From Paracoccaceae bacterium (GTDB taxonomy: Bacteria > Pseudomonadota > Alphaproteobacteria > Rhodobacterales > Rhodobacteraceae): DNA of 32,125 nucleotides. Every line of letters starts with the position of its first letter. Positions within the stretch are counted from its first letter, which is position 1. This document shows, one piece after another, positions 1,963-26,469 of this stretch. The notes below the pieces were generated by a model. That model had not been told where the DNA came from and searched no databases. It was given only the letters and a program-made list of their open reading frames with translations. Position numbers and translations under genes: made by a program. Where the stretch lies: assembly GCA_020441345.1 (NCBI GenBank), contig JAGRMK010000004.1, positions 1 through 32,125 of the forward strand. The letters are read 5' to 3'.

Positions 1963-2082
1963 CCCCGGTGCGCAGCCTTGCCGCTGCCCTCGCGCGGGGC
2001 GTTTCCGGCTTTCCATGCCGTCGCCGCGTTGCTAAGCCGGGGGCGGAACTTTCCGCGAGCGCGACAAGGCAAGGACAGGCAG

Positions 2083-4207: not shown

Positions 4208-4210
4208 GCC

Positions 4211-6877: not shown

Positions 6878-7017
6878 GGGCAGGGGCGCACCTGTCTGAA
6901 ACGGGGTCGCCCGGTCTTGGCCCGGTGCCTGGAAGCTGTCAAGCGCAAGCGGGGCGGGTGCCTCGACTTCGCCAGGCGGCGGTGATAGCTGGTGGCGCCG
7001 ACGCAAACGGGGATGCC

Positions 7018-7944
7018 ATGCGGGTCTTTCAGCACATCGACGCGCTCTGGGGGCGTTTTTGGCCGCTTCTCGCGCTGCCGCCGCTGGTGCTGGCCGGGTA
7101 TGTCGTCACCGGGCAGGCCAGGATCGAGCATTACGTCGTGATCCTGGGCGTCATCGTGTTTTCGGTTGCCAGCCGCTTGACCCGCGACCTGCTGCTGGCG
7201 GTCATTCCGGGGATCGGCATTTTCCTGGGCTACGAGGCCGTGCGGGGTCTGCGCCCGCTGTTCGTGACCCCCGACCGTGTCCTTGCCTGCCAGTTTCGAG
7301 ACCTGGACGCCGCGCTGTTCGGCTTTGGCACGGGCATGACCCCGGCCGATTTTTTTGCCCTGCATCACAGCCCGCTCGCGGATCTGATCTTTGCCCTGCC
7401 CTATACGGTCTTCTGGGCCGTCGTGATGGCCTATTGCGGGGTGTTGTTCCTGATCTCGCGCGGGCGGCTCAGGCGCTACCTGTGGGTGCTGGCCCTCACG
7501 CATCTGGTGGCTTTTGCGATCTGGATGGCGCTGCCCGCCGCGCCGCCCTGGTATGTGCGCACGGTTGGCTGCGGGATCGACACCGCCGTGCCCCCGCAGG
7601 CGGCGGCGCTGTCACGCCTCGATGCGCGGTTCGGCATCGGGTATTTCGAGGCCTTCTACAGCCGCGCGCCCACCGTGTTCGGGGCCTTCCCGTCGCTGCA
7701 TGTCTCGTTCCCGGCGGCGGCGATGGTGACTGGCTGGCGCTGGTTCGGCCCCCTGGGGCGGACAGTGACCGCGACCCTGACCCTGTGGATGATCGCGGCC
7801 AGCGTCTATCTGGACCATCACTGGCTGGTCGATGGCCTTGCGACGCTTGTCATCGTCGTCGCGCTGCACGCGCTACTGGTGCGGCTGTGGCCAGCCTATC
7901 GCACGCCCGCCCCCCGAACGGTCTGGCGCGAGGGGCCGCGATGA
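7018..7944 (+). CDS. Aur1-like inositol phosphorylceramide synthase (PAP2 superfamily, 308 aa)
   Basis: Polytopic membrane protein with LPAAPPWY, FGAFPSLH and YLDHHWLVD, matching the conserved domains and His/His/Asp triad of fungal Aur1-type IPC synthases. Confidence 0.85.
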   Translation: MRVFQHIDALWGRFWPLLALPPLVLAGYVVTGQARIEHYVVILGVIVFSVASRLTRDLLLAVIPGIGIFLGYEAVRGLRPLFVTPDRVLACQFRDLDAALFGFGTGMTPADFFALHHSPLADLIFALPYTVFWAVVMAYCGVLFLISRGRLRRYLWVLALTHLVAFAIWMALPAAPPWYVRTVGCGIDTAVPPQAAALSRLDARFGIGYFEAFYSRAPTVFGAFPSLHVSFPAAAMVTGWRWFGPLGRTVTATLTLWMIAASVYLDHHWLVDGLATLVIVVALHALLVRLWPAYRTPAPRTVWREGPR

Positions 7945-9110
7945 CTCTGACCGTGACCCCCGTTGAAACCCGCCGCGCGCTGCGGCGTTTCATCGACCTG
8001 CCGCCGGTGCTGTATCGCTGGTTTCCCGACTATGAACCACCGATGCGCATGGACCGGACGATGCTGCTGGACCCGCGCAAGGGGGCGTTCTTTCGCCACG
8101 GCACGGTGCAATACTGGCTGGCCTGGCGCGACGGCGTGCCGGTCGGACGGATCTCGGCGCAGATGTCGCCGGATCGGCCGGTCGGGGTGCCCGAAGACAC
8201 CGGGATGTTCGGCTGCCTCGATACCATCGACGACCCCGAGGTCGTCGCCGCGCTGATCGCCGCCGCCGAGGCATGGCTGGCCGCGCGCGGATGCCGCCAT
8301 GCCTTCGGGCCTTTCCTGCTGAACATGAGCGGCGAGCCCGGATTGCTGATCGACGGCTTCGACCGGCCGCCGATGACCATGACGCCTTGGCACCCGCCCT
8401 ATCTGCGTGCGCATCTGGAAACGCTGGGCTATGCGAAATGGCGCGACCTGCATTGCTGGACGCTGGACCTGCGCACCGTGGACGGCGCGGCTCTCGGCCG
8501 GTCGTTGCGGCTGGACCGGCGCCGGACCGACATCACCTCGCGCGCGATCACACGGCGCACGCTCCGGGCGGACCTGCCGCTTCTGCGCGATCTTTACAAC
8601 GACGGCTGGCGCGACAACTGGGGGCATGTTCCGCTGACGCTGCGCGACATGCAGGGGCTGCGGCTGCTGGCACCGTATCTGCCGCGCCAGGCCGGGCGCG
8701 TGTTCGAGTTGGGCGGCAAGCCGGTGGCGGTCCTGCTGGCCATTCCCAACATGTTCGAGCTGACGCGCGGGCTTGGGCCAAAGCCCTCGCTGCTGGGCTG
8801 GTTGCGGCTGGGATGGCGCGCGCTGCGCTTTCGACCCCGCAGCGCGCGTATCGTCATGCTGGGCATCGCCGAACAGCTTCGGTTCAGCGCCGCCGGGGCC
8901 GCGATCATGCTGGCGATGATGGACGAATTGCTCGCCGAGCAGCGAACGCTGGATCTCGACGCGATCGACGGCGGCTGGGTTCTGGAGAACAACGTCGCAT
9001 TGACACGGTTCCTGGATCGTTACAACTTTACCACAACACGGATTTTTCGCATCTTCGGGAAACAGCTCGGCGGTGCGCAGGAGAGGCCAGATGACAACAG
9101 ACAGCCCTGA
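7941..9110 (+). CDS. GNAT-fold N-acyltransferase, YghO/bacterial ceramide synthase (bCerS)-like (389 aa)
   Basis: FIDLP..LY, LAWRDGVPVGRISA, AAEAWL..RG, GLLIDGFDRPP, HPPY, WVLENN fit the YghO-like tandem GNAT family. ATGA overlap with the upstream gene. Ceramide synthase role inferred from family and context. Confidence 0.75.
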   Translation: MTLTVTPVETRRALRRFIDLPPVLYRWFPDYEPPMRMDRTMLLDPRKGAFFRHGTVQYWLAWRDGVPVGRISAQMSPDRPVGVPEDTGMFGCLDTIDDPEVVAALIAAAEAWLAARGCRHAFGPFLLNMSGEPGLLIDGFDRPPMTMTPWHPPYLRAHLETLGYAKWRDLHCWTLDLRTVDGAALGRSLRLDRRRTDITSRAITRRTLRADLPLLRDLYNDGWRDNWGHVPLTLRDMQGLRLLAPYLPRQAGRVFELGGKPVAVLLAIPNMFELTRGLGPKPSLLGWLRLGWRALRFRPRSARIVMLGIAEQLRFSAAGAAIMLAMMDELLAEQRTLDLDAIDGGWVLENNVALTRFLDRYNFTTTRIFRIFGKQLGGAQERPDDNRQP

Positions 9111-9447
9111 AATCAACACGGAACCCCCCGTCGAGGACACCCGCCCGCCGGCACCGACAACCTGGCCGACCTTGCCCGAAGAGGGCATGCTGGACACGAT
9201 CCTCAAGATCATTGCCGACGAAGGCAAGGTTGATGCCGCCGATGTCGTGCCCGAAGCGACGCTGGAAACGCTGGGTCTGATCTCTATCGACGTGATCAGC
9301 ATCCTGATGGGCATCGAGGAACAATTCGATGTCTATCTGCCGATGAGCGACGAACTGTCATCGGCCCGCAACCTGGCCGAACTGATCGAGGTCATGGTCG
9401 CCCAGATGCAGCCCGACGAACTCAAGAGCATCGGCCCCGCGAAATAA
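9091..9447 (+). CDS. Specialised acyl carrier protein (118 aa; alternative start 9187)
   Basis: Small acidic protein, TLETLGLISIDVISILMGIEEQFDV matches ACP helix II with Ser at the phosphopantetheine position. GGAGAGG RBS; TAATG coupling to the ketosynthase. Confidence 0.85.
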   Translation: MTTDSPEINTEPPVEDTRPPAPTTWPTLPEEGMLDTILKIIADEGKVDAADVVPEATLETLGLISIDVISILMGIEEQFDVYLPMSDELSSARNLAELIEVMVAQMQPDELKSIGPAK

Positions 9448-10661
9448 TGGCGCGGGTCGCAATCACCGGGATGGGCGCGGTCAGCGCCGCGGGCATTGGC
9501 GCTGACACGCTGTGGATCGCGGCGCGCGATGGGGTTTCGGGCGTCCGCCCGCTTGACATACCGCGCGACGAAACCCTGCGCGTGCGCATCGCGGCCAGTG
9601 TTCCCGATTTCGACGCGGCCGCGCTGCTCGGGGGGGCCGTGCCGCGCACCAGCGAGCGGTTTACCCAGTTCGCCCTGGTCGCCGCTGCCGAAGCCGTCGC
9701 GCAGGCGGGCATCGCACCTGCCGACCTGACCGGGCGGCGCAGCGCCGCGATCATCGGCACCGGTGTCGGCGGGGTCGGCACCATCGACGACAACTGCTAC
9801 CTGTTTTATGGCACCGAGGTCGTGGCACGGGGCGAGCCGATGTCGGTGGCGCGGGTGATGCCCAGTTCGGCGGTCTCGCATGTCTCCATTGCCTATGGCA
9901 TCACCGGCCCCAGCTTTGGCATCGTCAGCGCCTGCGCCTCGGGCGCGCAGTCGATCGGCGTGGGCGCACAGATGATCCGTGCCGGCATGGTGGATCGCGC
10001 GTTGGTCGGCGCCTCGGAAGCCTGCATCACCCCGGTGACAATGCGCGGCTGGGAGATGCTGCGCGTCCTGTCGCCGCGCGCCTGCCGCCCGTTTTCGGCG
10101 GACCGCACCGGCATGGTGCTGGGCGAAGGGGCGGCGGTGTTCCTGCTTGAATCCGAGGACTCGCTGCGTGCCCGCGGCGGCACGCCGCTGGCCTGGCTCG
10201 ACGGTTACGGCACCAGCAGCGACGCGCGCGACATGATCCAGCCCGATGTCGAGGGCGCGGCCACGGCGATGCGCGAAGCGATCGACGACGCAGGCGTCGC
10301 GCCCGCAAAGATCGGCTATGTCAACGCCCATGGCACCGGCACCGTGCTGAACGACGCGAACGAGGCCGCCGCCCTGCGTCTCGTGTTCGGCGATCATCTC
10401 GACGTGCTCCCGGTCTCGTCCTCGAAGCCGATCCTGGGGCATACGCTGGGTGCGGCCGGGGCGCTCGAACTGATCGTCGCGGTTCAGGCGTTGCGCCACC
10501 AGACGGTGCCGCCGCAAGCCAACTACTCAAAACCCGACCCGAAATGTCCGCTGTTGCTGCCCGTCGATGGCGCGGTTCCCGCGGATCTCGATGCGGTCCT
10601 TTCGAACTCGTTCGCCTTTGGCGGTATCAACGCAACCTTGCTCGTGCGCCGCGCGCGATGA
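9447..10661 (+). CDS. Beta-ketoacyl-ACP synthase (FabF/NodE-like, 404 aa)
   Basis: RVAITGMG, SACASG (catalytic Cys), NAHGTGT and KPILGHTLGAAG (two His), SNSFAFGG.N. Confidence 0.93.
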   Translation: MARVAITGMGAVSAAGIGADTLWIAARDGVSGVRPLDIPRDETLRVRIAASVPDFDAAALLGGAVPRTSERFTQFALVAAAEAVAQAGIAPADLTGRRSAAIIGTGVGGVGTIDDNCYLFYGTEVVARGEPMSVARVMPSSAVSHVSIAYGITGPSFGIVSACASGAQSIGVGAQMIRAGMVDRALVGASEACITPVTMRGWEMLRVLSPRACRPFSADRTGMVLGEGAAVFLLESEDSLRARGGTPLAWLDGYGTSSDARDMIQPDVEGAATAMREAIDDAGVAPAKIGYVNAHGTGTVLNDANEAAALRLVFGDHLDVLPVSSSKPILGHTLGAAGALELIVAVQALRHQTVPPQANYSKPDPKCPLLLPVDGAVPADLDAVLSNSFAFGGINATLLVRRAR

Positions 10662-11107
10662 CGACGGCGCAAGCAGAGATCGGCGCACGGCCAGTCGGGG
10701 TGTTCCCGGTCTCTGTCGATGCGCAAGCCGTGGTCGCGTTTGCCGCGGCGCTGGGGCGGACCGACCCCTCGGACACCAAAGCGCCGGTGCCCCTGACCTT
10801 TCCGCTGCGCTGGTTCTCCGACCCCGCGATACGCGCCGCGCTCGTCGCCGCGTCCTTGCCCGATGCCGCAGGAACCCAGGCGATGCTGCCTGTCCACATC
10901 GAACAGCGCATCGCGCTGACCGAACCGCTGCGCATCGGTGCGGCGTATCGTCTGACGACTTCGGTGATTGGGCCCGACGCGCGCAACATCCTGCGCGTCA
11001 CCGCGACCCTGAGCGATGACCGGGGCAACCCGGTCGGGTCGCTTGCTTCCGGATTCCTGCTGGTTTCGACCGATGCCGGCCAACCCCCCGCCACGAGGCA
11101 CCGATGA
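10658..11107 (+). CDS. MaoC-like hot-dog fold protein, probably non-catalytic partner subunit (149 aa)
   Basis: AFAAALG, PLTFP, VHIEQRIALTEPLRIG resemble the FAS1-like/MaoC N-terminal dehydratase region; no hydratase-2 motif. ATGA overlaps at both ends. Confidence 0.6.
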   Translation: MTTAQAEIGARPVGVFPVSVDAQAVVAFAAALGRTDPSDTKAPVPLTFPLRWFSDPAIRAALVAASLPDAAGTQAMLPVHIEQRIALTEPLRIGAAYRLTTSVIGPDARNILRVTATLSDDRGNPVGSLASGFLLVSTDAGQPPATRHR

Positions 11108-11484
11108 TCGGCACGCGCCTGCCCGCCGTGGATTTGCCCGTCGCGGATCACGCGACAATCGCCGCCTATCTCGCCGCCTCGGGCGATGACAACCCGTTGC
11201 ATCGCCTGCCCGACCTGGCACAGGCGGCGGGGTATTCCGACATCCTGGTGCCGGGGATGCTGATCATGGGCCAGATGGCCGAGGCGTTGCAGGCCTGGCC
11301 AACCTGCGCCGCGATCGACTGGATCCTGTGCCGCTTCGTCGATCCGGTCGTGGTCGGCACCGCCCTGCGCTGCGAGGGGCGGATCCTGGCCGCCGATCCA
11401 TCGGGCGGGGTTGTCGTGCGGCTGACGGCGGGAGTAGGGCGGCGCTATTCGGTCGTCTGCGAGGCGGTCATTCATCTTGCCTGA
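11104..11484 (+). CDS. MaoC family (R)-specific dehydratase (126 aa)
   Basis: Hydratase-2 motif YLAASGDDNPLH, then A..AGY..ILVPGM and RFVDPVVVG. Confidence 0.88.
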   Translation: MIGTRLPAVDLPVADHATIAAYLAASGDDNPLHRLPDLAQAAGYSDILVPGMLIMGQMAEALQAWPTCAAIDWILCRFVDPVVVGTALRCEGRILAADPSGGVVVRLTAGVGRRYSVVCEAVIHLA

Positions 11485-12604
11485 GGGCCCTCAATCGGCC
11501 TCTCACCCGCCAGTGTTCGACCCCAAGCACAAGCCCGCACCCGGCCAGCAACACGACCGGCAGCCCCCAGGCTGCCGTCAGCGGCGACAGGCGTTCGTAT
11601 TCCCCCAGCGCGGAAAAGACATTGCCCGCGATGTGCAACGAATAGGCCGCGCCCACGATCACCAGCGGCACCAACAACCCGCGACGCGCGGCCATCCAGC
11701 GCAGGCTCAACGCAGCGACCAGCAGGGCCAGCGCAAGACTCCCGGCAATTGCCGCCCATCGTTCGTGCAGCGCCGCCCGATAGGCCCCCTGCGTCGGCAC
11801 GCCGCTTTCGGCGGCGGCAATCCGCCGCAACACGGGTTGCGGCAGGAATCGCGGCGCGACCCCGGCATAAGACAGCCAGTCGGCGTTCATCATCAGTGGC
11901 ACCAGGGCGCCCGTATCGCCCTCGGCGGGCCACGAGGCATGGTCGCCCTCCAGCATCAACCCTGCCTCGGTAGGGCGCGCGGCATCGGTCCAGATCACGC
12001 GCAACAACCGGTCGTCGGCATCAAACAGGAACAGGCGGGCATTGACCAGCACCGGCCCGTCGGCGGCAAAACGAATGCCCGCGTAGATCAGCGTATCGCC
12101 GAAATCGCGCCAGGCGCGCGGCGCGGTTCCGGCACGGAATCGAGAGCCGTAGAAACGGAATCCGGCCTCGCCCTGGGCGGCAACGGCGTAGGGCCGGACA
12201 TGGGCCTGAAGCGCGTATTGTCCAAGCCCGACAGCCAGCCCGACGACAAGCGCGGGCACCAGCGACAGGCCCGGTGCGCGCCCGGTGTTGGCGATCATCG
12301 ACCGCTCATAGCCCTGGGTCAACCGGACCTCGACCCACAAAATTCCGATCGCCAGCGCAATCGGCAGGATCGCAGGCAGGTTATACGCGGCACGCAGCCA
12401 CAGGTAATAGACCAGACGCAGCGCACCGTCGGGGGTTTCGACGATCCCCTCGGCCGACAGCACGCGGTCGAACCGGCCCGCCAGATCGAGCGCCAGCACC
12501 AGCGCCAGCACCAGCGCCGCCACCAGCAAAGTGTGCAACAGATAGAGCCGCGCGACGTAGCGCGTCTCAAGCCCGAACAGAGCAAGGGGAAACCGCCGGA
12601 TCAC
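11468..12604 (-). CDS. LptF/LptG family permease (LptG-like, 378 aa)
   Basis: RYVARLY start, three N-terminal TM helices, beta-rich periplasmic region, three C-terminal helices ending in LSPLTAAWGLP; third gene of lptB-F-G run. Divergent from canonical LptG. Confidence 0.8.
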   Translation of the reverse strand: MIRRFPLALFGLETRYVARLYLLHTLLVAALVLALVLALDLAGRFDRVLSAEGIVETPDGALRLVYYLWLRAAYNLPAILPIALAIGILWVEVRLTQGYERSMIANTGRAPGLSLVPALVVGLAVGLGQYALQAHVRPYAVAAQGEAGFRFYGSRFRAGTAPRAWRDFGDTLIYAGIRFAADGPVLVNARLFLFDADDRLLRVIWTDAARPTEAGLMLEGDHASWPAEGDTGALVPLMMNADWLSYAGVAPRFLPQPVLRRIAAAESGVPTQGAYRAALHERWAAIAGSLALALLVAALSLRWMAARRGLLVPLVIVGAAYSLHIAGNVFSALGEYERLSPLTAAWGLPVVLLAGCGLVLGVEHWRVRGRLRALRQDE

Positions 12605-13794
12605 AGGTGCATCCTCTGCGGCAGAATGGAACCCGGCAACAGCCGCCCCATGACCAGCGCCACCGTCAGTGCCACCGCCAGCGTCGCAGCCAGCGCAATC
12701 GCCATCGCGGGTGCCGGACCCAGTCCGACCAGAAATTCCGCCGCTGGCGCGACCCCCAACCCGCCGCCCAGCACGACGCCCAGCGCGGCGGGCAGCGCCG
12801 CAAGCCGCATCCGTCCCCGAGTCGCCACCAACCCCAGCCCGGCCAGCAACGGCGCGACAAAGGCCAGCGCCATGCCCAGCAACCGTTCCAACGTGGCGCG
12901 GCCGGCGTCGGTCTCGCCCTCAAGCCAGCGGATCACCAGTTCTGGCAGCATCGCGCCGCGCGTAACGCCGCCGCGCGCCACCGCGTCAGGCAGGGCGATC
13001 GGCACGCCGCCGACACGCAGGTGTTCGACACCGATTTGCACGCTGGGTGTCCGCTCTTGTCCTTCGCCACGGGTAAAGGCGATGACCCTTGCCCCGTCCA
13101 GGTCCAGAGATCCGATTTCGTCGCCCATCGTGTAATTCAACCTTGAGCGCGCGGCGGTGACGACCTGCTCCTCATCCGGCGACGGCGCGAGAAACACGAA
13201 GGTTCGTGCCCCGCCCGCATCCTCGCCCGCATCCTCGCCCGCATCCCCGCTCTCAGGTCCGCCATCGGTCCGGGGTTGCTGGTAGAACGTCGTCGTGCCG
13301 ATCGTCAGGAACTGCCCAGCCGTCAGTTGCCCCTGTTGCACCGCCTCGAACCGCCCCTCGATCAACCGGGTCGCCAACTGGCGGGCCGCCAGCGGCTCGA
13401 TGAACCCGCGCAACCCGCCCGCCAGCGTCAGCGCCAGCAGTCCGAGACCCAGGCAGAACCCGACCAGCGCACGCGGCGCGACCCCTGCCCCGGCGAGAAT
13501 GACGAAATCCCCGGCTTCACGCCGCCGCAACAGCGCGAAATAGACCGCGATGACCACCGCGATCGGAAAGCCGACCGACAGGATCTCGGGCGCGGCCAGC
13601 ACCAGGGTTTCAACCAGAAAGCCCACGCCCAACTGGTTGCGCAGCGCATCGAACAGAAGATGCGTGACCATCTTGTCAGACAGATACAACGCCTCGACCG
13701 CCAGCAGCATCAGCGCCATCTGCCGCACGACCTCGACGGCAAAAGACACCAGATACCGCCGTGGAAGGCCGACGCGGCGCGAGGCTTTGCGCAT
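12601..13794 (-). CDS. LptF/LptG family permease (LptF-like, 397 aa)
   Basis: RRYL, PEILSVGFPIA, GDFVILAGAGVAP (cf. E...l.A.GvS), F.EP, GQF; GAGGGG RBS before ATG 13794. Confidence 0.8.
   Translation of the reverse strand: MRKASRRVGLPRRYLVSFAVEVVRQMALMLLAVEALYLSDKMVTHLLFDALRNQLGVGFLVETLVLAAPEILSVGFPIAVVIAVYFALLRRREAGDFVILAGAGVAPRALVGFCLGLGLLALTLAGGLRGFIEPLAARQLATRLIEGRFEAVQQGQLTAGQFLTIGTTTFYQQPRTDGGPESGDAGEDAGEDAGGARTFVFLAPSPDEEQVVTAARSRLNYTMGDEIGSLDLDGARVIAFTRGEGQERTPSVQIGVEHLRVGGVPIALPDAVARGGVTRGAMLPELVIRWLEGETDAGRATLERLLGMALAFVAPLLAGLGLVATRGRMRLAALPAALGVVLGGGLGVAPAAEFLVGLGPAPAMAIALAATLAVALTVALVMGRLLPGSILPQRMHL
13213..13246. repeat. 12-bp tandem repeat (GCCCGCATCCTC x ~2.8) within the lptF-like gene
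   Basis: Read directly; encodes DAGEDAGEDAG in the predicted periplasmic domain. Confidence 0.9.
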
Positions 13795-13801
13795 CCCCTC
13801 T

Positions 13802-14548
13802 CTACCCCGCGAATTCCGGGCCGAGCCAGAGCGCGCGCAGCGCCGGGTCGTCCAGCACCACCGCCGGCGCGGCATCCCGCAGGATGATCCCGCCCGCGAT
13901 GACAAGGGTGCGGTCACAGATCGACAGGGTGTCGTGGATGTTGTGATCGGTGATCAACACGCCAATGCCACGCGCGGCCAAGGTGCGGATCTGCTCCTTG
14001 ACCTGACCGATCGACAGCGGGTCCAGCCCGGTAAAGGGTTCATCCAGCAGCAGATAGCGCGGGCGCACCGCCAGCAGCCGGGCGATCTCGCAGCGCCGCC
14101 GCTGCCCGCCCGAAAGCTGGCCGGGCCGGTGGTTGCGGATCCCGTTCAGGTCCATCTCTTCCAGCAGGATTTCCAGCCGCGCCGCGCGCTCGGCCCTGTC
14201 GGGTTCATGGTTTTCCAGCGCCAGCCGGATGTTGTCGGCAACGCTCAGCCCGCGAAAGGCCGAAGGATCCTGTGGCAGATAGCTGAGACCGCAGCGCGCG
14301 CGGGCATAGGTCGGCAACCGGGTCACATCGAGCCCGTCCAGCGTGATCCGCCCGCCATTCGGCGGTTCGGCCCCGATCAGCATCCGGTAGAGGGTCGTCT
14401 TTCCCGCGCCGTTCGGTCCCATCAGGGACACGATTTCGCCACGGGCGACGGTAAAGCTGGCGTCCGCGACCGCCTGGAAGCCCCGGTATCGTTTGGACAG
14501 GCCGACTGCCGCCAGTGCATTCTGGCCTTCCGCACCCGCTGGCATCAT
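13802..14548 (-). CDS. lptB: LptB-like ABC ATPase (248 aa)
   Basis: GPNGAGKTT, YLPQDPSAFRGLSV, LSGGQRRRCEIAR, LLDEPFTGLDP, GVLITDHN and C-terminal LWLGPEF all track LptB. Confidence 0.88.
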   Translation of the reverse strand: MMPAGAEGQNALAAVGLSKRYRGFQAVADASFTVARGEIVSLMGPNGAGKTTLYRMLIGAEPPNGGRITLDGLDVTRLPTYARARCGLSYLPQDPSAFRGLSVADNIRLALENHEPDRAERAARLEILLEEMDLNGIRNHRPGQLSGGQRRRCEIARLLAVRPRYLLLDEPFTGLDPLSIGQVKEQIRTLAARGIGVLITDHNIHDTLSICDRTLVIAGGIILRDAAPAVVLDDPALRALWLGPEFAG

Positions 14549-15573
14549 GGCGTCGTTTTCGCCCGCGCGGGGCAGGTCGCCACCGCAAGTCCCGCCGCGC
14601 CGATGATCAAGGTCGAGACCAGCATCATCGCCTGGTGCAGCACCGCGACCGATATCGCCTCGGCGGCCGGGGTTCCGAGCGCGGCATAGGTTGTGAAAAC
14701 CGCCAGCGCCTGCGGGCCCAGGTGCACCGGCGCAAGCGGCAAGAGCGACACAAGGCTGACCGAAGCCACCGCGAGAATCGCCAGCGCGGGTGTCCCGTCG
14801 ATGCCCAGCGCGCGCTGGATCGCATAGGCCGACGCGATCTCTAGCCCTTTTTTCAGCACCGCAAGCAGCGCCGCAGGCAGCACCACCCGGACCGATCCAA
14901 GCCGCCCGAGATCCCCCGCAAAGCGCGCGACCGCCGCGCCCAGCCGCGCACCCAGCGCGCTCCGCAAGGCGCGCCGGAACCGGCCCAGACCGGCCAGCAG
15001 CAGGCAGGCAACGCCCAGTGCCGCGCCCAGCACAAGGCTAGCGTTGCGTACCGGCGCCGGCACCGGCGCCATCGCCAGCGCAAGGACCAGAACAAGCAGC
15101 TTCGTGCCCCCTGCCAGGATCTGATCGACGGTCATCACGCTGGCCGCCTCGGCGGCCGTAAGCCCCGCATGGGTGTGAAGCGCCGCCCCGCCCGAGGCAA
15201 CGCCGCCGAGCCCCGAGATCGTAAAGCGCGCGCCGATGGACAGCGCGACCACCTGTGCCATGACCGGCCAGCGCACAATGCGCAACGGCGCGGCAATATG
15301 TCGCCACTGCCAGACCCACAGGGGATAGACCACCAGGCTCGCCGCCAACGCCAGCGCCAGCACGCCCCAGTTCGCGGCGGCCAGCGCAATAGTGACCTGT
15401 TCCCAAGGCGATAGGGCTATGGCGAGAACCAGCAACACCAGCACCGACACAACCACGGCACCGGTCAGCAGACGCCGCCATGACGGCCCAGCCCATCGGC
15501 GCGCCGTGGCACCACCGGTGACGGCGTGCGCCACAGGGCCCTGTCTTGCCGTGTCACGATGTCCTCGCAGCAT
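14545..15573 (-). CDS. Lysylphosphatidylglycerol-synthase-TM / flippase-like (UPF0104) membrane protein (~342 aa)
   Basis: Highly hydrophobic; W..V...LAAANW, WQWRHI, GG, DQI, LPLAPVHLG (cf. P.tPgglG), LG....A pattern. ATGA overlap with lptB. Start uncertain (15573 or 15621). Confidence 0.72.
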   Translation of the reverse strand: MLRGHRDTARQGPVAHAVTGGATARRWAGPSWRRLLTGAVVVSVLVLLVLAIALSPWEQVTIALAAANWGVLALALAASLVVYPLWVWQWRHIAAPLRIVRWPVMAQVVALSIGARFTISGLGGVASGGAALHTHAGLTAAEAASVMTVDQILAGGTKLLVLVLALAMAPVPAPVRNASLVLGAALGVACLLLAGLGRFRRALRSALGARLGAAVARFAGDLGRLGSVRVVLPAALLAVLKKGLEIASAYAIQRALGIDGTPALAILAVASVSLVSLLPLAPVHLGPQALAVFTTYAALGTPAAEAISVAVLHQAMMLVSTLIIGAAGLAVATCPARAKTTP

Positions 15574-15652
15574 GCCGACGCTACCAATTCTCTGGTGGTG
15601 GGGACATTGCCCTGATAACAACCATCCTTAGTGAATTAGGCTTGAGATATCA

Positions 15653-16744
15653 ATGAACGGGAATACCATCCGTGTCGCAATCGTAGGCATCGGCAATTGC
15701 GCATCGTCCTTCGTTCAGGCGCTCACGTTTTATCGCGGGAGCCCCGAAGACATCAGTGCCATGACCGGCCTGATGCATGACGAACTCGGTGGCTACCGCA
15801 TCGACGACATCGAGGTCGTCGCGGCTTTCGACGTGCACGCCGGCAAAGTCGGCCAGGATTTGTCCGACGCGATCCATTGCCCGCCCAACAACACCCTGCG
15901 CTTTGCCGATGTGGCACCGCTGGGCGTCACGGTCCAGCGCGGCCCGACGCTGGATGGAATCGGAACCTATGTCGAAGACATGGTGCCGTTGTCCGATCTG
16001 CCTGATGTCGATGTCGCGCAGGTGCTCAAGGACAGTGGCGCGCAAGTCCTGATCAACTATCTGCCCGTGGGGTCCGAGGCGGCAACCCGGTTCTATGTCG
16101 AGCAGGCCCTTGAAGCAGGCTGCGGCGTCATCAATTGCATTCCGGTGTTCATCGCCTCGGACCCGGTCTGGTCGGAACGGTTTCGCGCGGCCGGCCTGCC
16201 GATCATCGGCGACGATATCAAGAGCCAGGTGGGCGCCACCATCGTGCACCGGACACTGGTCAACCTGTTCAAGGATCGCGGCGTGCGCGTCGACCGGACC
16301 TATCAGCTCAATTTCGGCGGCAACACCGATTTCAAGAACATGCTGGAACGTCAGCGCCTTGAATCAAAGAAGATCTCGAAAACCCGCGCGGTCTCCAGCC
16401 AGACCGCCAACGCTTTGGCGGACAAGGACATCCATGTCGGACCCAGCGACTATGTGCCCTGGCTCGATGATCGCAAATGGGCGCAGATCCGCATCGAGGG
16501 CACCGGCATCGGCGGTGCGCCGGTCAATATCGAACTGAAGCTGGAGGTCTGGGATTCCCCCAACTCGGCCGGCGTCGTGCTGGATGCGGTGCGTTGCCTG
16601 AAGCTGGCCTTCGACCGGGGGATCGCCGGATGCATCGAGGCGCCGTCAAGTTTCTACATGAAATCGCCCCCCGTGCAGATCGAAGACAAGGACGCCATGC
16701 GGCGCTTGCAGATCTTCATTGACGCGACCGCGACGAAAGCCTGA
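15653..16744 (+). CDS. ino1: Myo-inositol-1-phosphate (inositol-3-phosphate) synthase (363 aa)
   Basis: [58 protein letters not shown]. Confidence 0.97.
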
Positions 16745-16789
16745 CAACGCCGTCGGGTTGAGGACGCGCAAATCCATGGGACAGCGCAA

Positions 16790-18019
16790 ATGGCCGATAC
16801 GGCAAAGGTGAAAAGCTCGTTCAACGACGTGATGGCGCGGCGGTTTTCGCGCACCTTCCAGCGCGCGGCCCAGGGGCTCAGCGCCGAGGATATCGCCCAG
16901 TCGGGCGCCCGCGATGCCTTCTTTGCACCGGTCGATGCGCTGGCCGCCGATGTCCAGGCAAAGGGCGGCGCTTTCCTCAGCTTTGGTCACTACGATTACC
17001 TTGGCGTGTCCGGTCATCCCGCGGTGATCGAGGCCGGGGTCGCCGCGCTGCGTCAGTTCGGCGCCGGCGCCGGGGCCTCGCGGCTGGTGGGCGGCGAGCG
17101 GTTGGCACATCGCGCCCTGGAACAGGCCATGGCGGGCTTTCTGGGCGCCGAAGCGACGCTGATGATGATCAGCGGATACCTCGCCAACCTGTCGCTCATC
17201 CCGCATCTGCTGACTGCGCAAGACCTGCTGATCATCGATTCGCTTGCGCATAACTCGATTGCCAGCACCGCGCGCACCGGCGGATATGACTGCCGGACCT
17301 TCGCACATAACGATTGCGACGCGCTGGAGCGTATTCTAGAGGCCGAGCGCGGCAATTATCGCCAGGTTCTGATTGTCACCGAAGGCCTGTTCTCGATGGA
17401 TGGCGACATCCCCGATCTGCCGCGCCTTCTGGCGATGAAAGAACGGCACGACGCTTGGCTGATGCTGGACGAGGCGCATTCCTATGGCGTTCTGGGCGCG
17501 ACCGGGCGCGGGATTACCGAGCATTTCGGCATCGACCCCCGGCGCATCGACATTTCGGTCGGCACCCTGTCCAAGAGCTTCGGCGCGTCCGGCGGTTTCA
17601 TCGCGGCGGCCGCGCATGTGATCGAATGGCTGCGCTACACCCTGCCCGGCTTCGTGTTCAGCGTCGGCCTGTCACCGGCGACGGTGGCGACGGTCCGCGC
17701 GGCGCTGGAGCTGCTGGTCGCCGAGCCCGAGCGCCTGGACCGCCTGCGCGAAACATCGGCCTATTTCCTGCGCCGCGCACGGGACGCGGGGCTGAACACC
17801 GGCCCAGCGATCGGTATTGCGGTGGTGCCTGTCCTCTTTGACAGCACGGCGCAGACGATGAGGATGGCAAAACGGTTGCGCGATGCGGGGATCTACGCCC
17901 CGCCGGTTGCCCAGGTCGGCGTGCCGGTGGACAGCCCGCGCATCCGGTTCTTCCTGACCGCGAACCATACGCGCGCGGACATCGACCGCGTGATCGGGTT
18001 GCTTGCACAGCCGGACTGA
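16790..18019 (+). CDS. PLP-dependent alpha-oxoamine synthase, candidate serine palmitoyltransferase (409 aa)
   Basis: YDYLG, ASRLVGG, SGYLAN, HNSI, EGLFSMDGD, DEAHS, GTLSKS (PLP lysine). Family is secure; SPT specificity is inferred from context. Confidence 0.8.
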   Translation: MADTAKVKSSFNDVMARRFSRTFQRAAQGLSAEDIAQSGARDAFFAPVDALAADVQAKGGAFLSFGHYDYLGVSGHPAVIEAGVAALRQFGAGAGASRLVGGERLAHRALEQAMAGFLGAEATLMMISGYLANLSLIPHLLTAQDLLIIDSLAHNSIASTARTGGYDCRTFAHNDCDALERILEAERGNYRQVLIVTEGLFSMDGDIPDLPRLLAMKERHDAWLMLDEAHSYGVLGATGRGITEHFGIDPRRIDISVGTLSKSFGASGGFIAAAAHVIEWLRYTLPGFVFSVGLSPATVATVRAALELLVAEPERLDRLRETSAYFLRRARDAGLNTGPAIGIAVVPVLFDSTAQTMRMAKRLRDAGIYAPPVAQVGVPVDSPRIRFFLTANHTRADIDRVIGLLAQPD

Positions 18020-18829
18020 TCAGCGCGGCAAATCGTCCGGGGCCAGCCCCGTGTGCCTGAGGCTATAGGTCAGGATACGGTCAACCACCGGCGCCGGGGC
18101 AATCGCCCCCAGCGCGACCGCCAGCCGCAACGGCCAGGGAAAGGCGCTGATCCGGGCGCCGCGCGCGACATCGCGGGCGATGCGGTCGGCGGCGCGCTCG
18201 GGGGTCCAGAGCCAGGGGCGCGGCGTTGTCAGGGACTGGCTCATCGGCGTGTCGACAAACCCGGGCAGCACCAGGGTCACGGTCACGCCCTGCGGTCGCA
18301 ACAGCCGCCGGGTGGCATCGGCGTAGATCTTCAGCGCGGCCTTGGACGCCGAGTAGACCGGCGATTGCGGCAGGCCGATCCCGCCCTGGATCGAGCCGAC
18401 GATGACCACGTGCCCCGCCCCGCGCCGTGCCATGCGCGGCTGCAAGGGCGTCACGGTATTCAGAACACCCAACGTGTTCACCGACATCAGGTCACGCGCC
18501 TGTGCGCCGTTTTCGCCCCCCCTCGCCGCCAGGGCCCGATTGCCGCCCAACCCCGCCGCCGCGATCACCATATCAACCGGATGCGCCGCATCGCGCGACT
18601 CGATCCAGGGTTCCAGTGTCGCGTGATCCGTGACATCGATCTGCGCGGCCGCGATCTCGGCCCCCAACGCGCGACAGGCAGCGGCGACCGCGTCGAGCCG
18701 GTCGGCATCGCGGCCGATCAGCGACAACAGGCGACCGGGCGCGGCATAGCGCAACGCCAGGGCGCGGCCGATGCCGCTGCTGGCGCCGGTGATCATCACA
18801 TGCGTCGGATTATCCCGCCGCCCCGCCAT
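18020..18829 (-). CDS. Short-chain dehydrogenase/reductase (269 aa)
   Basis: ITGASSGIG, catalytic Ser (GSIQG), YSASK, PGFVDTPM. Confidence 0.92.
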   Translation of the reverse strand: MAGRRDNPTHVMITGASSGIGRALALRYAAPGRLLSLIGRDADRLDAVAAACRALGAEIAAAQIDVTDHATLEPWIESRDAAHPVDMVIAAAGLGGNRALAARGGENGAQARDLMSVNTLGVLNTVTPLQPRMARRGAGHVVIVGSIQGGIGLPQSPVYSASKAALKIYADATRRLLRPQGVTVTLVLPGFVDTPMSQSLTTPRPWLWTPERAADRIARDVARGARISAFPWPLRLAVALGAIAPAPVVDRILTYSLRHTGLAPDDLPR

Positions 18830-18959
18830 CGCCGCGCGCCTCCTGCCGGTTTCCCGGTTCTTCTAGCATGTCCGCCTGTCGCCGTGCCAGTCCAGCCTGC
18901 GGGGTGGCGGCGGCGGATCACCCCGGCTATCCTGCTACCGCAAACCCCGAGGGAAAACC

Positions 18960-19562
18960 GTGCGCATTCATGAACCCTTCATCACCCCTGTCGCGCGCCG
19001 CCTTGCCGGTGGCCCGCTGACCCCGAATGCGGTCACGCTGGCCTCGGTGCCGCCGGCGTTGCTGGCCGGGGTCTGCGCGGCGCTGGGCTGGTTCGAGGGT
19101 GCGGCGCTCTTGTTCGGGCTCAGCGGGGTGCTGGACCTGCTCGATGGCGCGCTGGCCCGCGCGTTGGCCCGGCGCACGGATTTCGGCGCGTTGCTGGATT
19201 CATCGCTGGACCGGGTGGCGGATGCCTGTGTGCCGATCGGGCTGGTGGTCTATTACGCGCCGCACGGCATCGTCGCGGCGATCCCGGCGCTGTTCCTGCT
19301 GGCCTCGCTGTGGATTTCCTACATCCGCGCGCGGGCGCAATCGCTGGGCCTGGACCTGCCCCGTCTGTGGATGCGCCGCGAGGACCGGTTCGTTGCGCTG
19401 GTTCTGGCCTTGCTGCTGGCGCGCTGGGTCGCGCCGGGGGCCGCCCTGCCCGCGCCGCTGCTGTTGTGGGTTCTGGGGATCGTTGCCGTCCTGGGCTTTG
19501 TCGCCGGGGCGATGGCGCTGGCCCATGCCGCGCGTCAGGCCCGTCAGACCCCGCCCCAATAG
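18960..19562 (+). CDS. CDP-alcohol phosphatidyltransferase, phosphatidylinositol(-phosphate) synthase-like (200 aa)
   Basis: TPNAVT and signature DLLDGALAR...FGALLDSSLDRVAD; SYIRARAQSLG and RREDR resemble PIP-synthase motifs. GTG start after GAGGG. Confidence 0.88.
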   Translation: MRIHEPFITPVARRLAGGPLTPNAVTLASVPPALLAGVCAALGWFEGAALLFGLSGVLDLLDGALARALARRTDFGALLDSSLDRVADACVPIGLVVYYAPHGIVAAIPALFLLASLWISYIRARAQSLGLDLPRLWMRREDRFVALVLALLLARWVAPGAALPAPLLLWVLGIVAVLGFVAGAMALAHAARQARQTPPQ

Positions 19563-20428
19563 GGCGCGAAGGCCGCGATCGCGGCGGCGTCGTTCTGGCC
19601 TGAACGGTTTGGCCCATCGGTCAGCGCCTGAACGGCCGAGCCTGGGGTCTCGACCGGGAAGCGGCGCGTCGGCACCACCACCCGCCGCACGCCGCGCCGT
19701 GCCAGATGGCCCGAGATCCAGACGTCATCCACCCAGCGCACCGCCTCGGGATAGCCTGAGAAATCCTGCACCGCATCGTCGAGCGCGCCAGGCGGCAGCA
19801 GATAGCCCCAGGTTCCGAACAGGATATCGACCGGAACGGGCGCAGAGATCGCGCTGCACAGCACATGCGCCAGTGCCGGGAATGACACGCCCGGCGCCAC
19901 GCTTACCCCGCGCAGACCGACGGCGGCAGCGGGATCGGCCCGGTGCGAGGCAAGAAGCCCGGCCAGAAAATCGCGCGGATAGATCACATCGTCATCGACC
20001 ACCACGATCCGCGCCTTGGGTTCGGCGCGCAGCGTCGGCAGCAGTTTCGACGCCGGCCCCGCATCGGTGCAGCGCAGAACCTCGACCCCCTCGGGCAGCG
20101 CCAGTGTCGCGGGGGCGGGATAGGGCTGACCAGTGCGGCGCGACACCTCGGGCAAACACAGCACGATCCGGTCGGCGGGCTCGGTCTGGTCGATGAGGCT
20201 GCGCAGCGTGGCGCGCAGACGGTGCGCCCGCGCGGGAATCGTGGTCAGCGTCACCACCACCCGTTCGGGCCGGGGTTCGGGCCGGGGCTCGGGCGACGGG
20301 CGACGCGCCGGATCGCGCCAGGCCAGTTGCAGCGCCCGCGCATAGACCCCGGCGATCTGGCCCAGGCCAGGATTGCGATAGCGTGCAAGGGTGCGCGCGA
20401 TGTTCTGCGAGAGCGGAACCTTGCTCAT
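19544..20428 (-). CDS. GT-A fold glycosyltransferase (GT2-like, 294 aa)
   Basis: VVVTLTTIPAR, LRSLIDQT, GPASKLLP, VVVDDDVIYP (DXD), DDVWISG. ATGA overlap with upstream GT32 gene. Confidence 0.8.
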   Translation of the reverse strand: MSKVPLSQNIARTLARYRNPGLGQIAGVYARALQLAWRDPARRPSPEPRPEPRPERVVVTLTTIPARAHRLRATLRSLIDQTEPADRIVLCLPEVSRRTGQPYPAPATLALPEGVEVLRCTDAGPASKLLPTLRAEPKARIVVVDDDVIYPRDFLAGLLASHRADPAAAVGLRGVSVAPGVSFPALAHVLCSAISAPVPVDILFGTWGYLLPPGALDDAVQDFSGYPEAVRWVDDVWISGHLARRGVRRVVVPTRRFPVETPGSAVQALTDGPNRSGQNDAAAIAAFAPYWGGV

Positions 20429-21204
20429 CCGCCCTGCCCCCAGACCGCGGCCGCGGGGCTCCAGACGGGGGCGGCAAACGGATTGACCGGGCGGTTGCGT
20501 TCGATCCAGCGGCGCCTGAGCGAGCCAGGTGCAAGGTCGGCGGCTTTCCAGCTTCCGTGGGTTTCGTGGCGCGCGACCATGTGCCGGTTCACGGGCCAGA
20601 CATTCGGATAATCGAGCGGTGCCATCAGCTGAATTTGCGACCCGACCCAGACATCGGGCCAGACGCGGTCCTGCAACAGACGGGTCAACATGCGCGGGCC
20701 GGTGATGTCCTCGATCCGGTCGCGGGTCACGGCGGGCGCGGCGTCGAACAGGGCAAACGCCCGATCCAGCGCGGCGCGCAGAAACGGGTGGCCCGGCTCT
20801 GCGGCCAGAATGCAGTTGGCGATCTGGATGCCCCGGCGATAGCCCAGTTCGCGCTGGCGCTGGCGGCCAAGATGCGCCTCGATGGACACCGAGCAAGGGC
20901 GCGCGAACAGATCCTGTGGCAGGGGGCGCAGGGGCTGCATGTCGATATCGGCGTAAATCCCGCCATCGCGCAACAGCACCGCCAGCCGGAACACATCGGC
21001 GCGCATCACGCCAAAGGGCATCGCGTCATAGGCTGTCATATGCTCGGGCGATACCTCGGCAATCACCGCCCGGCTGGCGGCATCGTCATAAAGCCGCAGG
21101 GTCAGCGCCGGGTTCAGCCGCGCCCAGGCCGCGCGCAAGGCTTCGGCGCGGAGCGGCAGCCCGGCGGTTTTCCAGGTCTGTGACAGGATGCGAGGCAGGG
21201 ACAT
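20425..21204 (-). CDS. GT32 family (Och1/Sur1-like, DXD) glycosyltransferase (259 aa)
   Basis: LPRILSQTWK, RADVFRLAVL..DGGIYADID, AAEPGHPFL, TGP..LT, H...GSW. Confidence 0.88.
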   Translation of the reverse strand: MSLPRILSQTWKTAGLPLRAEALRAAWARLNPALTLRLYDDAASRAVIAEVSPEHMTAYDAMPFGVMRADVFRLAVLLRDGGIYADIDMQPLRPLPQDLFARPCSVSIEAHLGRQRQRELGYRRGIQIANCILAAEPGHPFLRAALDRAFALFDAAPAVTRDRIEDITGPRMLTRLLQDRVWPDVWVGSQIQLMAPLDYPNVWPVNRHMVARHETHGSWKAADLAPGSLRRRWIERNRPVNPFAAPVWSPAAAVWGQGG

Positions 21205-21336
21205 CGAGGCCGGTTCAATGACGAACCGCGACGATAGGGCGTTGCGCGCAGGGTTACAACCGGCGCGGCACCGGCGCCGATTGCCTTTCCCCGCGCCCCT
21301 GCGGTAGTTTCGCAAAGCCAAGTCAAAGGACGCCCA

Positions 21337-24041: not shown

Positions 24042-24067
24042 TCTCCGGTCCCTCTGACCGCGTTTCG

Positions 24068-26467: not shown

Positions 26468-26469
26468 AA

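What the first reader, a model, noticed from the sequence alone, without database searches (positions are those of the whole stretch)
7018..9110. Aur1-like IPC synthase translationally coupled to a ceramide-synthase-type GNAT
Seen: the two genes overlap by ATGA (7941-7944) and lead an operon with the ACP/KS genes; the first has PAAPPWY, AFPSLH and HHWLVD. Established: these motifs define Aur1-type enzymes, and bacterial ceramide synthase is a GNAT unrelated to eukaryotic CerS. Inference: consecutive steps (N-acylation, then inositol-phosphate transfer), and the strongest local evidence that the acceptor is ceramide.
Basis: partly seen in the sequence, partly recalled or inferred. Interest (0 to 1): 0.75.

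Follow-up and report, generated by a model that had tools for sequence, protein, structure and literature searches.

The report
Alphaproteobacterial inositol-ceramide lipid synthesis genes
Two overlapping genes in an uncultured Rhodobacteraceae bacterium encode a relative of the yeast enzyme that caps ceramide with inositol phosphate and a relative of bacterial ceramide synthase, and they sit in a rare gene island that likely makes and exports a fungal-style inositol sphingolipid, although no lipid has been measured.

Summary
Observation confirmed. Gene A (7018-7944) is Aur1-type: its only solved-structure matches are yeast Aur1, it keeps the H-H-D triad, and it lacks the phosphatase motifs. 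Gene B (7941-9110) is a tandem GNAT of the bCerS/YghO family (34% to Caulobacter bCerS over 382 aa). The ATGA overlap is weak evidence: 6 of 12 tight junctions in the island overlap by four bases, and the two genes are adjacent in only 6 of 17 relatives that have both nearby. Better evidence for ceramide as acceptor is co-occurrence: bCerS in 65 of 67 genomes examined that carry A-relatives, against 62 of 400 Alphaproteobacteria. A PIP synthase lies beside 65 of 80 A-relatives, pointing to an inositol donor. The island (about 1978-25180) also holds MIPS, a RkpG/SgaB-type oxoamine synthase, an SgaC-like reductase, a private ACP/KS/dehydratase line, LptBFG paralogues and glycosyltransferases. 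Likely product: inositol phosphoceramide, perhaps hexosaminylated, with the two steps on opposite membrane faces. The chemistry is known from Bacteroides; this gene combination in Alphaproteobacteria was not found in my paper searches. The scan noted the same island type earlier in another genome. No enzyme or lipid was tested.

The parts
7018..7944 (+). Aur1/BT_1522-type lipid phosphotransferase (predicted inositol-phosphoceramide synthase), 308 aa, triad H228/H268/D272
   Evidence: Pfam PF14378 E 1.3e-14; NF052609 101.7 bits, cut-off 480; yeast Aur1 E 2.6e-11; model matches Aur1 at E 1.9e-8
7941..9110 (+). bCerS/YghO-family tandem GNAT (predicted ceramide synthase), 389 aa
   Evidence: 34% over 382 aa to Caulobacter bCerS allele; E 4e-47, 98% cover at database size 1e8; tandem GNAT fold; tree
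7941..7944 (+). ATGA stop/start overlap, preceded by a GAGGGG ribosome-site-like hexamer
9091..9447 (+). dedicated acyl carrier protein with N-terminal extension (Ser65)
   Evidence: PF00550 E 2e-7; follows the GNAT in 5 of 5 relatives that have it
9447..10661 (+). FabF-like ketosynthase, C163/H295/H332 present
   Evidence: PF00109/PF02801; TIGR03150 377 bits, below cut-off 494
10658..11107 (+). probable hot-dog dehydratase partner (assignment inferred from position; no family hit)
   Evidence: no Pfam hit; conserved between KS and MaoC in 4 related loci
11104..11484 (+). MaoC/HadB-like dehydratase
   Evidence: PF01575 E 4e-12
11468..13794 (-). LptF and LptG paralogues (12601-13794, 11468-12604)
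   Evidence: PF03739; another LptG-like gene lies on contig C311
13802..14548 (-). second LptB ATPase
   Evidence: TIGR04406 274 bits, over cut-off 240; another LptB on C87, 48%
14545..15621 (-). LPG-synthase TM / flippase-like protein (start uncertain)
   Evidence: PF03706 E 3e-19; in 18 of 24 alpha-type loci
15653..16744 (+). myo-inositol-phosphate synthase
   Evidence: PF01658; TIGR03450 511 bits, cut-off 638
16790..18019 (+). alpha-oxoamine synthase of the RkpG/SgaB-like clade (predicted serine acyltransferase)
   Evidence: 40% to PKS-linked enzymes, 33-34% to Caulobacter/E. coli Spt; clade 100/100
18020..18829 (-). classical SDR, SgaC/RkpH-like (predicted 3-ketosphinganine reductase)
   Evidence: PF00106; 40% to the SDR of the Pseudomonas PKS-AOS cluster, its best hit in the genome
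18960..19562 (+). CDP-alcohol phosphotransferase, PIP-synthase-like
   Evidence: NF040950 115 bits, NF045883 97 bits, both below cut-off; DxxDGxxAR...GxxxDxxxD motif; near 65 of 80 A-relatives
19544..20428 (-). GT2-like glycosyltransferase
   Evidence: PF13641/PF00535 weak; in 14 of 24 alpha-type loci
20425..21204 (-). DXD glycosyltransferase (PF04488), not conserved in related loci
   Evidence: 0 of 80 loci
21337..22056 (+). NodB-type polysaccharide deacetylase
   Evidence: PF01522 E 6e-24; in 12 of 24 alpha-type loci
22045..23121 (-). GT4 glycosyltransferase; best full-length solved relative is PimA
   Evidence: PF00534; PimA E 2e-12 over residues 5-355; in 16 of 24 alpha-type loci

Best explanation
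Gene B encodes a bCerS-family tandem GNAT that likely N-acylates a long-chain base to (dihydro)ceramide on the cytoplasmic face, and gene A encodes an Aur1-type membrane enzyme that likely transfers inositol phosphate from phosphatidylinositol to that ceramide on the periplasmic face. Steps: MIPS makes inositol phosphate; PIP synthase and a PgpA-type phosphatase (elsewhere in this genome) give PI; the RkpG/SgaB-type oxoamine synthase condenses serine with an acyl-ACP; the SgaC-like SDR reduces the ketone in the cytoplasm, so reduction would precede N-acylation as in eukaryotes; B acylates, probably from the private ACP/KS/dehydratase line; lipids cross the membrane (flippase-like protein, inferred); A forms a phosphoinositol-His268 intermediate, releases DAG and His228 activates the ceramide hydroxyl; glycosyltransferases may decorate the head and LptB/F/G paralogues would move it to the outer membrane. 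Shown: sequence, family membership, catalytic residues, fold, gene context, co-occurrence. Inferred: every substrate, the order of steps, topology and export.
For: A: only PDB sequence hits are yeast Aur1; only fold hits at E<=0.001 are Aur1, phosphatases score E>=0.03; S226/H228/H267/H268/D272 match Aur1 S253/H255/H293/H294/D298 and are invariant in 60 of 60 homologues; only NCBIfam hit is the B. thetaiotaomicron PI-DHC synthase model. B: 34% to Caulobacter bCerS, 33% to E. coli YghO, passes the published homologue cut-off; nested among homologues from Caulobacter, E. coli, Roseomonas and Sphingomonas. Donor: PIPS near 65 of 80 A-relatives, 55 of those 65 just upstream; PgpA near 43 of 80. 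Acceptor: bCerS local in 17 of 80 loci and elsewhere in 48 of 50 further genomes searched; 24 of 24 alpha-type genomes against 62 of 400 sampled Alphaproteobacteria; in a Myxococcota sample 12 of 12 A-positive against 59 of 138 A-negative genomes. In L022 and L038 the order is PKS, oxoamine synthase, bCerS, SDR, A, GT4, flippase-like. SgaB was shown to be a serine palmitoyltransferase (PMC12134224); LptF2/G2 are implicated in sphingolipid transport in Caulobacter.
Against: No lipid, enzyme or transcript data. A scores 102 bits on NF052609 against a cut-off of 480, and is 26% identical to a Prevotella BT_1522-type protein. B forms its own subclade (SH-aLRT 99), sister to the Caulobacter/E. coli group with only 83 support in a quick tree; no member of that subclade has been assayed to my knowledge. 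The oxoamine synthase fails the published Spt cut-off against Caulobacter Spt (E 4e-50 against 1e-70) and its link to SgaB rests on a syntenic Pseudomonas plasmid cluster, not on SgaB itself. No PgpA, LptC or LptA was identified in the island. Two of 50 genomes searched had no bCerS match. An A-like gene also lies next to a ketosynthase and SDRs on a Streptomyces clavuligerus plasmid, so the family may have other uses. Related genomes are not independent samples.
Confidence: 0.74

Rival explanations
1. A transfers inositol phosphate to another acceptor, for example an already glycosylated sphingolipid (as yeast Ipt1 does; recalled) or a glycan anchor, and B's product reaches A only after decoration.
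For: The island carries four glycosyltransferases and a Wzm/Wzt exporter; GT4 abuts A in L022 and L038; the oxoamine synthase and SDR are of the type found in capsule loci.
Against: Myxobacterial and Prevotella relatives of A sit with PIPS, PgpA and GtrA as in BT_1522-1525 and lack these GT homologues; Wzm and the upstream GT4 are near 1 of 80 relatives each.
Confidence: 0.1
2. B acylates a non-serine amino-alcohol made by the divergent oxoamine synthase (alanine, glycine or another amino acid), so the product is a sphingolipid-like amide rather than true ceramide.
For: The synthase lies outside the canonical Spt clade and is about equally distant from Spt, Kbl and BioF (33-36%); B is in its own subclade.
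Against: The synthase groups 100/100 with PKS-linked enzymes of the SgaB type, and SgaB makes 3-ketosphinganines from serine; a C1 hydroxyl is needed for A to act; best PDB hit is a Sphingobacterium-type SPT entry, by a small margin (219 against 206 bits).
Confidence: 0.07
3. A is a phosphotransferase for another head group (ethanolamine, glycerol or choline phosphate) onto ceramide.
For: The H-H-D triad does not fix the donor; an earlier AI note proposes an ethanolamine-type group of Aur1-like proteins (e1-9954919, unchecked).
Against: PIPS is near 65 of 80 relatives and MIPS is in 17 of 24 alpha-type loci; Labilithrix has MIPS-PIPS-GtrA-A-PgpA in a row.
Confidence: 0.05
4. A is only a lipid phosphatase, for example the PIP phosphatase that the island otherwise lacks.
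For: It has Pfam PAP2 hits and no PgpA lies in the window.
Against: KX6RP, PSGH and RX5HX3D, the phosphatase signature (PMC6581854), are each absent from 60 of 60 homologues and A has no lysine at all; the fold matches Aur1 six orders of magnitude better than LpxE or PgpB; 43 of 80 relatives have a PgpA beside A and this genome has a PgpA fragment on C144.
Confidence: 0.04

Closest known systems
Bacteroides thetaiotaomicron BT_1522-1526 inositol lipid cluster (PMC9246714, PMC8791184)
   Same: Aur1-like PI-dihydroceramide synthase with MIPS, PIP synthase and, in many relatives, PgpA; an LPG-synthase-like gene nearby in both.
   Different: A is 26% identical to a Prevotella orthologue and far below the family cut-off; here ceramide synthesis, a private acyl line, Lpt paralogues and glycosyltransferases are in the same island; PgpA and GtrA are not in this window.
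Saccharomyces cerevisiae Aur1 (PDB 9vj3/9vj4/9ivc; PMC13133130)
   Same: PAAPPWY, PSLH and HHxxxD motifs; H-H-D triad; same fold (TM-score 0.64-0.65 by query).
   Different: No Kei1 partner identified; H157/F158 of the aureobasidin site align with F132/W133; two invariant cysteines (C91, C185) in the bacterial clade.
Caulobacter crescentus bCerS (CCNA_01212/CC_1154) and E. coli BL21 YghO, with Spt, CerR, AcpR, AasR, LptF2/G2
   Same: Full-length homologue (33-34%), shared NDAWxxNWG-type block and C-terminal WVLE; LptF/G paralogues alongside.
   Different: No CerR, AasR or AcpR orthologue found in this 65%-complete genome; non-canonical oxoamine synthase and a classical SDR instead; own LptB; inositol instead of phosphoglycerate head genes; cerS shares an operon with an ACP/KS line.
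Pseudomonas fluorescens MYb115 SgaABC PKS-sphingolipid cluster (PMC12134224) and Sinorhizobium rkp-type PKS-AOS-SDR locus
   Same: Oxoamine synthase and SDR are of this type (40% each to a syntenic Pseudomonas cluster); four alpha-type relatives of A carry the full PKS.
   Different: This window has a dissociated ACP/KS/dehydratase set in place of the PKS, and adds bCerS, Aur1 and inositol genes. The names rkpG/rkpH are recalled; the record does not use them.
Pseudomonas aeruginosa GpgSDF (glucosaminyl-PG; PMC12713373)
   Same: Same functional trio: glycosyltransferase, deacetylase, predicted flippase.
   Different: Analogy only: the GT4 scores 68 bits on NF053787 (cut-off 480), no better than on other GT4 models; direct comparison with GpgD/GpgF was not made.

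Membership tests
Aur1-type IPC synthase | H-H-D catalytic triad (Aur1 H255/H294/D298) with auxiliary S253, H293 | tested here: met
   H228/H268/D272, S226, H267 by alignment; invariant in 60 of 60
Aur1-type IPC synthase | Aur1-type motifs in place of the phosphatase signature | tested here: met
   Px[AS]PPWY, PS[LM]H, HHxxxD 60 of 60; KX6RP, PSGH, RX5HX3D 0 of 60
Aur1-type IPC synthase | Fold closest to Aur1 among solved LPT/PAP2 enzymes | tested here: met
   Foldseek E 1.9e-8 and 5.7e-8 to Aur1; next 0.031; model pLDDT 94
Aur1-type IPC synthase | Transfer of phosphoinositol from PI to ceramide | not testable with these tools
   needs an assay
Bacteroidetes PI-DHC synthase equivalog (NF052609, BT_1522) | Score at or above curated cut-off 480 | tested here: not met
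   101.7 bits; a Prevotella orthologue in a BT-type operon scores 394, myxobacterial and Phreatobacter relatives 121-153. Homologue, not a member of this equivalog
Bacteroidetes PI-DHC synthase equivalog (NF052609, BT_1522) | Clustering with MIPS, PIP synthase and PIP phosphatase | tested here: met
   MIPS and PIPS in the window; PgpA not in the window but on C144 and beside 43 of 80 relatives
PAP2 lipid phosphatase (PgpB/LpxE type) | KX6RP - PSGH - SRX5HX3D | tested here: not met
Bacterial ceramide synthase (bCerS/YghO) | BLASTP to bCerS at E<=1e-30 and cover>=50% (database size 1e8; PMC11334938) | tested here: met
   E 4e-47, 98% with the Caulobacter allele as query; E 4e-58 with YghO
Bacterial ceramide synthase (bCerS/YghO) | Tandem GNAT fold | tested here: met
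   best fold hits are tandem GNATs, E about 1e-12; no solved bCerS appeared among them
Bacterial ceramide synthase (bCerS/YghO) | Placement inside the clade of homologues from ceramide producers | tested here: inconclusive
   own subclade, sister to Caulobacter/E. coli/Roseomonas at SH-aLRT 83, Sphingomonas and Bacteroides further out; quick tree only, midpoint root
Bacterial ceramide synthase (bCerS/YghO) | Reciprocal best hit with Caulobacter bCerS | tested here: inconclusive
   B is the only hit of the Caulobacter allele in this genome; the reverse was run only on four metagenome loci, not a whole Caulobacter genome
Bacterial ceramide synthase (bCerS/YghO) | N-acylation of a long-chain base | not testable with these tools
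   needs an assay
Canonical Spt-bCerS-CerR pathway | Canonical Spt (E<=1e-70) and CerR, with AcpR/AasR | tested here: not met
   oxoamine synthase E 4e-50 to 3e-54, outside the Spt clade; best CerR hit 30% over 65%; genome 65% complete
SgaABC-type sphingolipid cluster | PKS-type oxoamine synthase plus SDR reductase | tested here: met
   40% each to the syntenic cluster in L090; clade 100/100
SgaABC-type sphingolipid cluster | Iterative type I PKS | tested here: not met
   no full-length PKS match in this genome; present in L022, L038, L039, L063

The most novel reading that the evidence does not exclude
The island makes a hexosaminyl-inositol-phosphoceramide, chemically like the core of GPI anchors and plant/fungal GIPCs, by a eukaryote-order route (SgaB-type SPT, cytoplasmic SDR reduction, bCerS, Aur1), with a PimA-like GT4 adding HexNAc to inositol, a NodB-type enzyme removing the acetyl group, and a private LptB2FG pump sending it to the outer membrane. 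It would be a portable module shared with myxobacteria and scattered over Rhodobacterales, Hyphomicrobiales and Stellaceae, testable in cultured Phreatobacter.
Probability: 0.3. Interest if true: 0.75.

Novelty: new variant of a known kind. Interest (0 to 1): 0.5.

Why it matters
The genes for bacterial inositol sphingolipids have been tested only in Bacteroides in the papers I could search. This island names a complete candidate route in Alphaproteobacteria, joins three modules studied apart (BT_1522-type head transfer, bCerS, SgaB/C-type base synthesis) and offers tests of open points: whether bCerS can act after a cytoplasmic reductase (the order is disputed in Caulobacter; PMC11087976, PMC11324152), which acyl donor bCerS uses, and how sphingolipids are flipped and exported. 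The same Aur1 clade in Sorangium, Polyangium and Labilithrix gives candidate enzymes for myxobacterial inositol ceramides (reported for Myxococcus xanthus, cited in PMC9246714). The two-gene overlap alone is ordinary.

Tried and rejected
Pfam and NCBIfam gave no hit for B; the Caulobacter allele has no Pfam hit either, so this is no evidence against. PDB sequence search for B gave only chance hits. No sigma-70-like promoter match in 6700-11700, 0 found against 0.5 expected. No RNA holder listed among 19 runs: no evidence on expression. GC and GC3 of island genes match the flanks, so composition gives no sign of recent transfer. The careful tree for B did not finish; the quick tree is reported (73 rows: about half of the 98 homologues, 15 locus proteins, 8 references, B). 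The A tree left out L063 and about half of the myxobacterial rows. The original bCerS paper (Stankeviciute 2022) and the Sorangium lipid paper were not held, so their data and supplements, including the published bCerS sequence set, were not seen. Deacetylase and GT4 searches in the plasmid collection found no informative homologue. A paper search for Phreatobacter lipids found nothing relevant. I did not run a complex prediction, because I do not claim that A and B bind. The Sur1/Csg1-like reading of the DXD glycosyltransferase (recalled) was set aside as strain-specific: 0 of 80 related loci have it.
Full report
Observation. The window is the whole of contig C238 of a 3.13-Mb, 65%-complete genome; the nearest named relative of gene A is from a Rhodobacteraceae MAG (76%). 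They lead six overlapping genes ending at 11484. One contig of run X4 spans 6600-26500 with 65 differing letters. Near-identical DNA is listed in wastewater, activated-sludge and soil runs (four of them laid).

Gene A. Pfam gives PAP2_3 and PAP2; the only NCBIfam hit is the PI-dihydroceramide synthase model, 102 bits against a cut-off of 480. The only PDB sequence hits up to E 1 are two yeast Aur1 entries, E about 3e-11. The model (pLDDT 94) matches Aur1 at E 2e-8 and 6e-8; SMSr and LpxE follow at 0.03 and PgpB at 0.29. H228, H268 and D272 align with the Aur1 triad shown essential in PMC13133130 (passages), and are invariant in 60 of 60 aligned homologues, as are S226, H267, C91 and C185. The phosphatase signature KX6RP-PSGH-SRX5HX3D (PMC6581854, passages) is absent from all 60; A has no lysine and has Ser262 at the C3 arginine position. 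Hydropathy, model helices and basic loops (147-154, 240-249, C-terminus) put the catalytic loops 172-228 and 265-270 outside; this is inference, in line with the luminal site of Aur1 and the periplasmic site of LpxE. Aur1 H157/F158, whose substitution confers aureobasidin resistance, align with F132/W133, with a one-residue gap ambiguity.

Gene B. To get a reference I took the bcerS primer from the supplement of PMC11087976 and scanned metagenomes: 4 matches, 3 of them full bcerS genes; L004 matches both published primers exactly and L005 also matches the spt primer. This is a Caulobacter allele, not proven identical to CCNA_01212. B is 34% identical to it over 382 aa, 33% to E. coli BL21 YghO (named as the homologue of CC_1154 in PMC9386255, passages), 37% to Roseomonas, 28% to Sphingomonas and 26% to Bacteroides homologues; Caulobacter against Bacteroides is 28%. 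It passes the cut-off used in PMC11334938 (passages). All 8 reference proteins hit only B in this genome. The model (pLDDT 93.5) is a tandem GNAT. In a quick tree B lies in a 36-row subclade (SH-aLRT 99), sister at 83 to Caulobacter/E. coli/Roseomonas. An Ensifer GNAT without sphingolipid neighbours is 28-29% to both B and Caulobacter bCerS, so the family has looser members; B is not among them.

The coupling. Six of 12 tight same-strand junctions in the island overlap by four bases, and B has its own GAGGGG. A bCerS homologue lies within the fetched flanks of 17; it directly follows A in 6, and the overlap is kept in 2 of those 6. B is followed by ACP and KS in 5 of 5 loci that have the ACP, two of them with A elsewhere. 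PIP synthase is near 65 of 80, just upstream in 55. So the overlap is one arrangement among several. Caulobacter bCerS is cytoplasmic and peripheral (PMC11087976, abstract and first results), so A and B probably face opposite sides.

Better evidence for the acceptor. Of the 63 genomes without a local bCerS, 50 were searched and 48 have one; 13 were not searched. All 24 loci I class as alpha-type by title or gene content (two carry non-alpha labels, L012 and L041) have it, against 62 of 400 sampled Alphaproteobacteria. In a Myxococcota sample, 12 of 12 A-positive genomes have it against 59 of 138 A-negative ones, leaving out the centre genome. Kin are not independent, so I give no weight to P values. 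In L022 and L038, PKS, oxoamine synthase, bCerS, SDR, A, GT4 and flippase-like genes stand in a row.

The island. From about 1978 to 25180 the window holds Wzm/Wzt/Wzt, GT4, A, B, ACP, KS, two dehydratase-like genes, LptG/F/B, a flippase-like gene, MIPS, an oxoamine synthase, an SDR, PIP synthase, GT2, a DXD transferase, a deacetylase, GT4, an unknown protein and an acyltransferase-3. The one same-genus genome matches the flanks but not this block. A was not found in 300 family and 400 class genomes searched. Among the 24 alpha-type loci: PIPS 19, flippase-like 18, MIPS 17, bCerS 17, GT4 16, PgpA 15, GT2 14, LptB 13, deacetylase 12, oxoamine synthase 11, SDR 8 (flanks are limited to 10 kb and by contig ends). 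The oxoamine synthase is 40% to PKS-linked enzymes of Sinorhizobium and Pseudomonas and 33-36% to Spt, Kbl and BioF, and groups with the former at 100/100. The Pseudomonas cluster has the same locus-tag spacing as MYb115 sgaA/sgaB/sgaC, where SgaB is a shown SPT and SgaC a proposed reductase (passages of PMC12134224). The SDR is 40% to that cluster's SDR. A full PKS (4 loci) and the dissociated KS (7 loci) were not seen together, so the ACP/KS line may feed the oxoamine synthase as well as B. No CerR, AasR or AcpR orthologue was found, in an incomplete genome. LpxC and a PgpA fragment are present elsewhere. The alpha-type A proteins share a 100/99 clade with myxobacterial ones; direction of transfer was not tested.

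Comparison and novelty. The head-group step is that of BT_1522 (PMC9246714 and PMC8791184, passages); the amide step that of bCerS (PMC11324152, introduction and passages); export resembles Caulobacter LptF2/G2, which borrows the LPS LptB, whereas this island has its own (bioRxiv 10.64898/2026.04.12.717747, abstract and first part). PMC9246714 reports an IPC-like lipid in Novosphingobium acidiphilum without these genes, so inositol sphingolipid in an alphaproteobacterium is not unheard of. Searches (listings only) showed no paper on this gene set; the library lacks most subscription papers. The GT4-deacetylase-flippase trio parallels GpgSDF (PMC12713373, abstract, introduction and methods), and the GT4's best full-length solved relative is PimA: a lead for a hexosaminyl-inositol head, not a test. 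Earlier AI notes of this scan describe the same island type in another genome.

Verdict. Real, correctly identified pair in a rare inositol-sphingolipid island; the overlap adds little. New variant of a known kind, interest 0.5.

Noticed in passing
window 23427-24041 (+): Unannotated 204-aa protein ending in Phe; Atlas neighbours are unnamed clusters (0.98), nearest named cluster is PagL-like (0.93). Possibly an outer-membrane barrel; absent from the 80 related loci.
   Followed up: partly
window 1978-5500 (+) and 5507-6877 (-): One Wzm with two Wzt ATPases, both with a Wzt_C domain, plus a GT4; seen near A only in the Rhodobacteraceae loci L008 and L014. May export a glycan polymer built on the lipid, or be a separate locus.
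   Followed up: partly
window 9091-9447: ACP has a conserved Pro-rich N-terminal extension (PAPTxWPxL) and a GLxSI/MD motif instead of the usual GxDSL (recalled consensus) in 5 relatives.
   Followed up: partly
L091 9828-25095 (Acidisoma plasmid): bCerS-like gene (39% to B), SDR, oxoamine synthase (52%), sterol-desaturase-family gene, LTA-synthase-family gene and capsule export genes together: suggests a ceramide-anchored capsule.
   Followed up: no
L089 2280-12043 (Sinorhizobium meliloti) and L090: PKS-oxoamine synthase-SDR trios in capsule loci are homologous to the window's pair, hinting that such capsule anchors are long-chain bases.
   Followed up: partly
L094 3322-10456 (Streptomyces clavuligerus pSCL4): An Aur1-like gene (37% to A; 128 bits on NF052609) sits between a ketosynthase and two SDRs; role unexplained.
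   Followed up: no
L043 579-2218, L058 6822-11445: In Phreatobacter the bCerS gene abuts a PgpA gene; Labilithrix has MIPS-PIPS-GtrA-Aur1-PgpA, the same gene set as BT_1522-1526.
   Followed up: yes
L012, L041: Records labelled Flavobacteriaceae and Archangium carry islands nearly identical in order to Rhodobiaceae and Phreatobacter ones: probably mis-binned or mislabelled contigs.
   Followed up: partly
window 24068-25180 (-): Acyltransferase-3 family membrane protein at the island's right edge, not conserved in related loci.
   Followed up: no
G325 (genome of L049): Two Aur1-like matches in one myxobacterial genome, and two bCerS-family matches in several Sorangium genomes.
   Followed up: no
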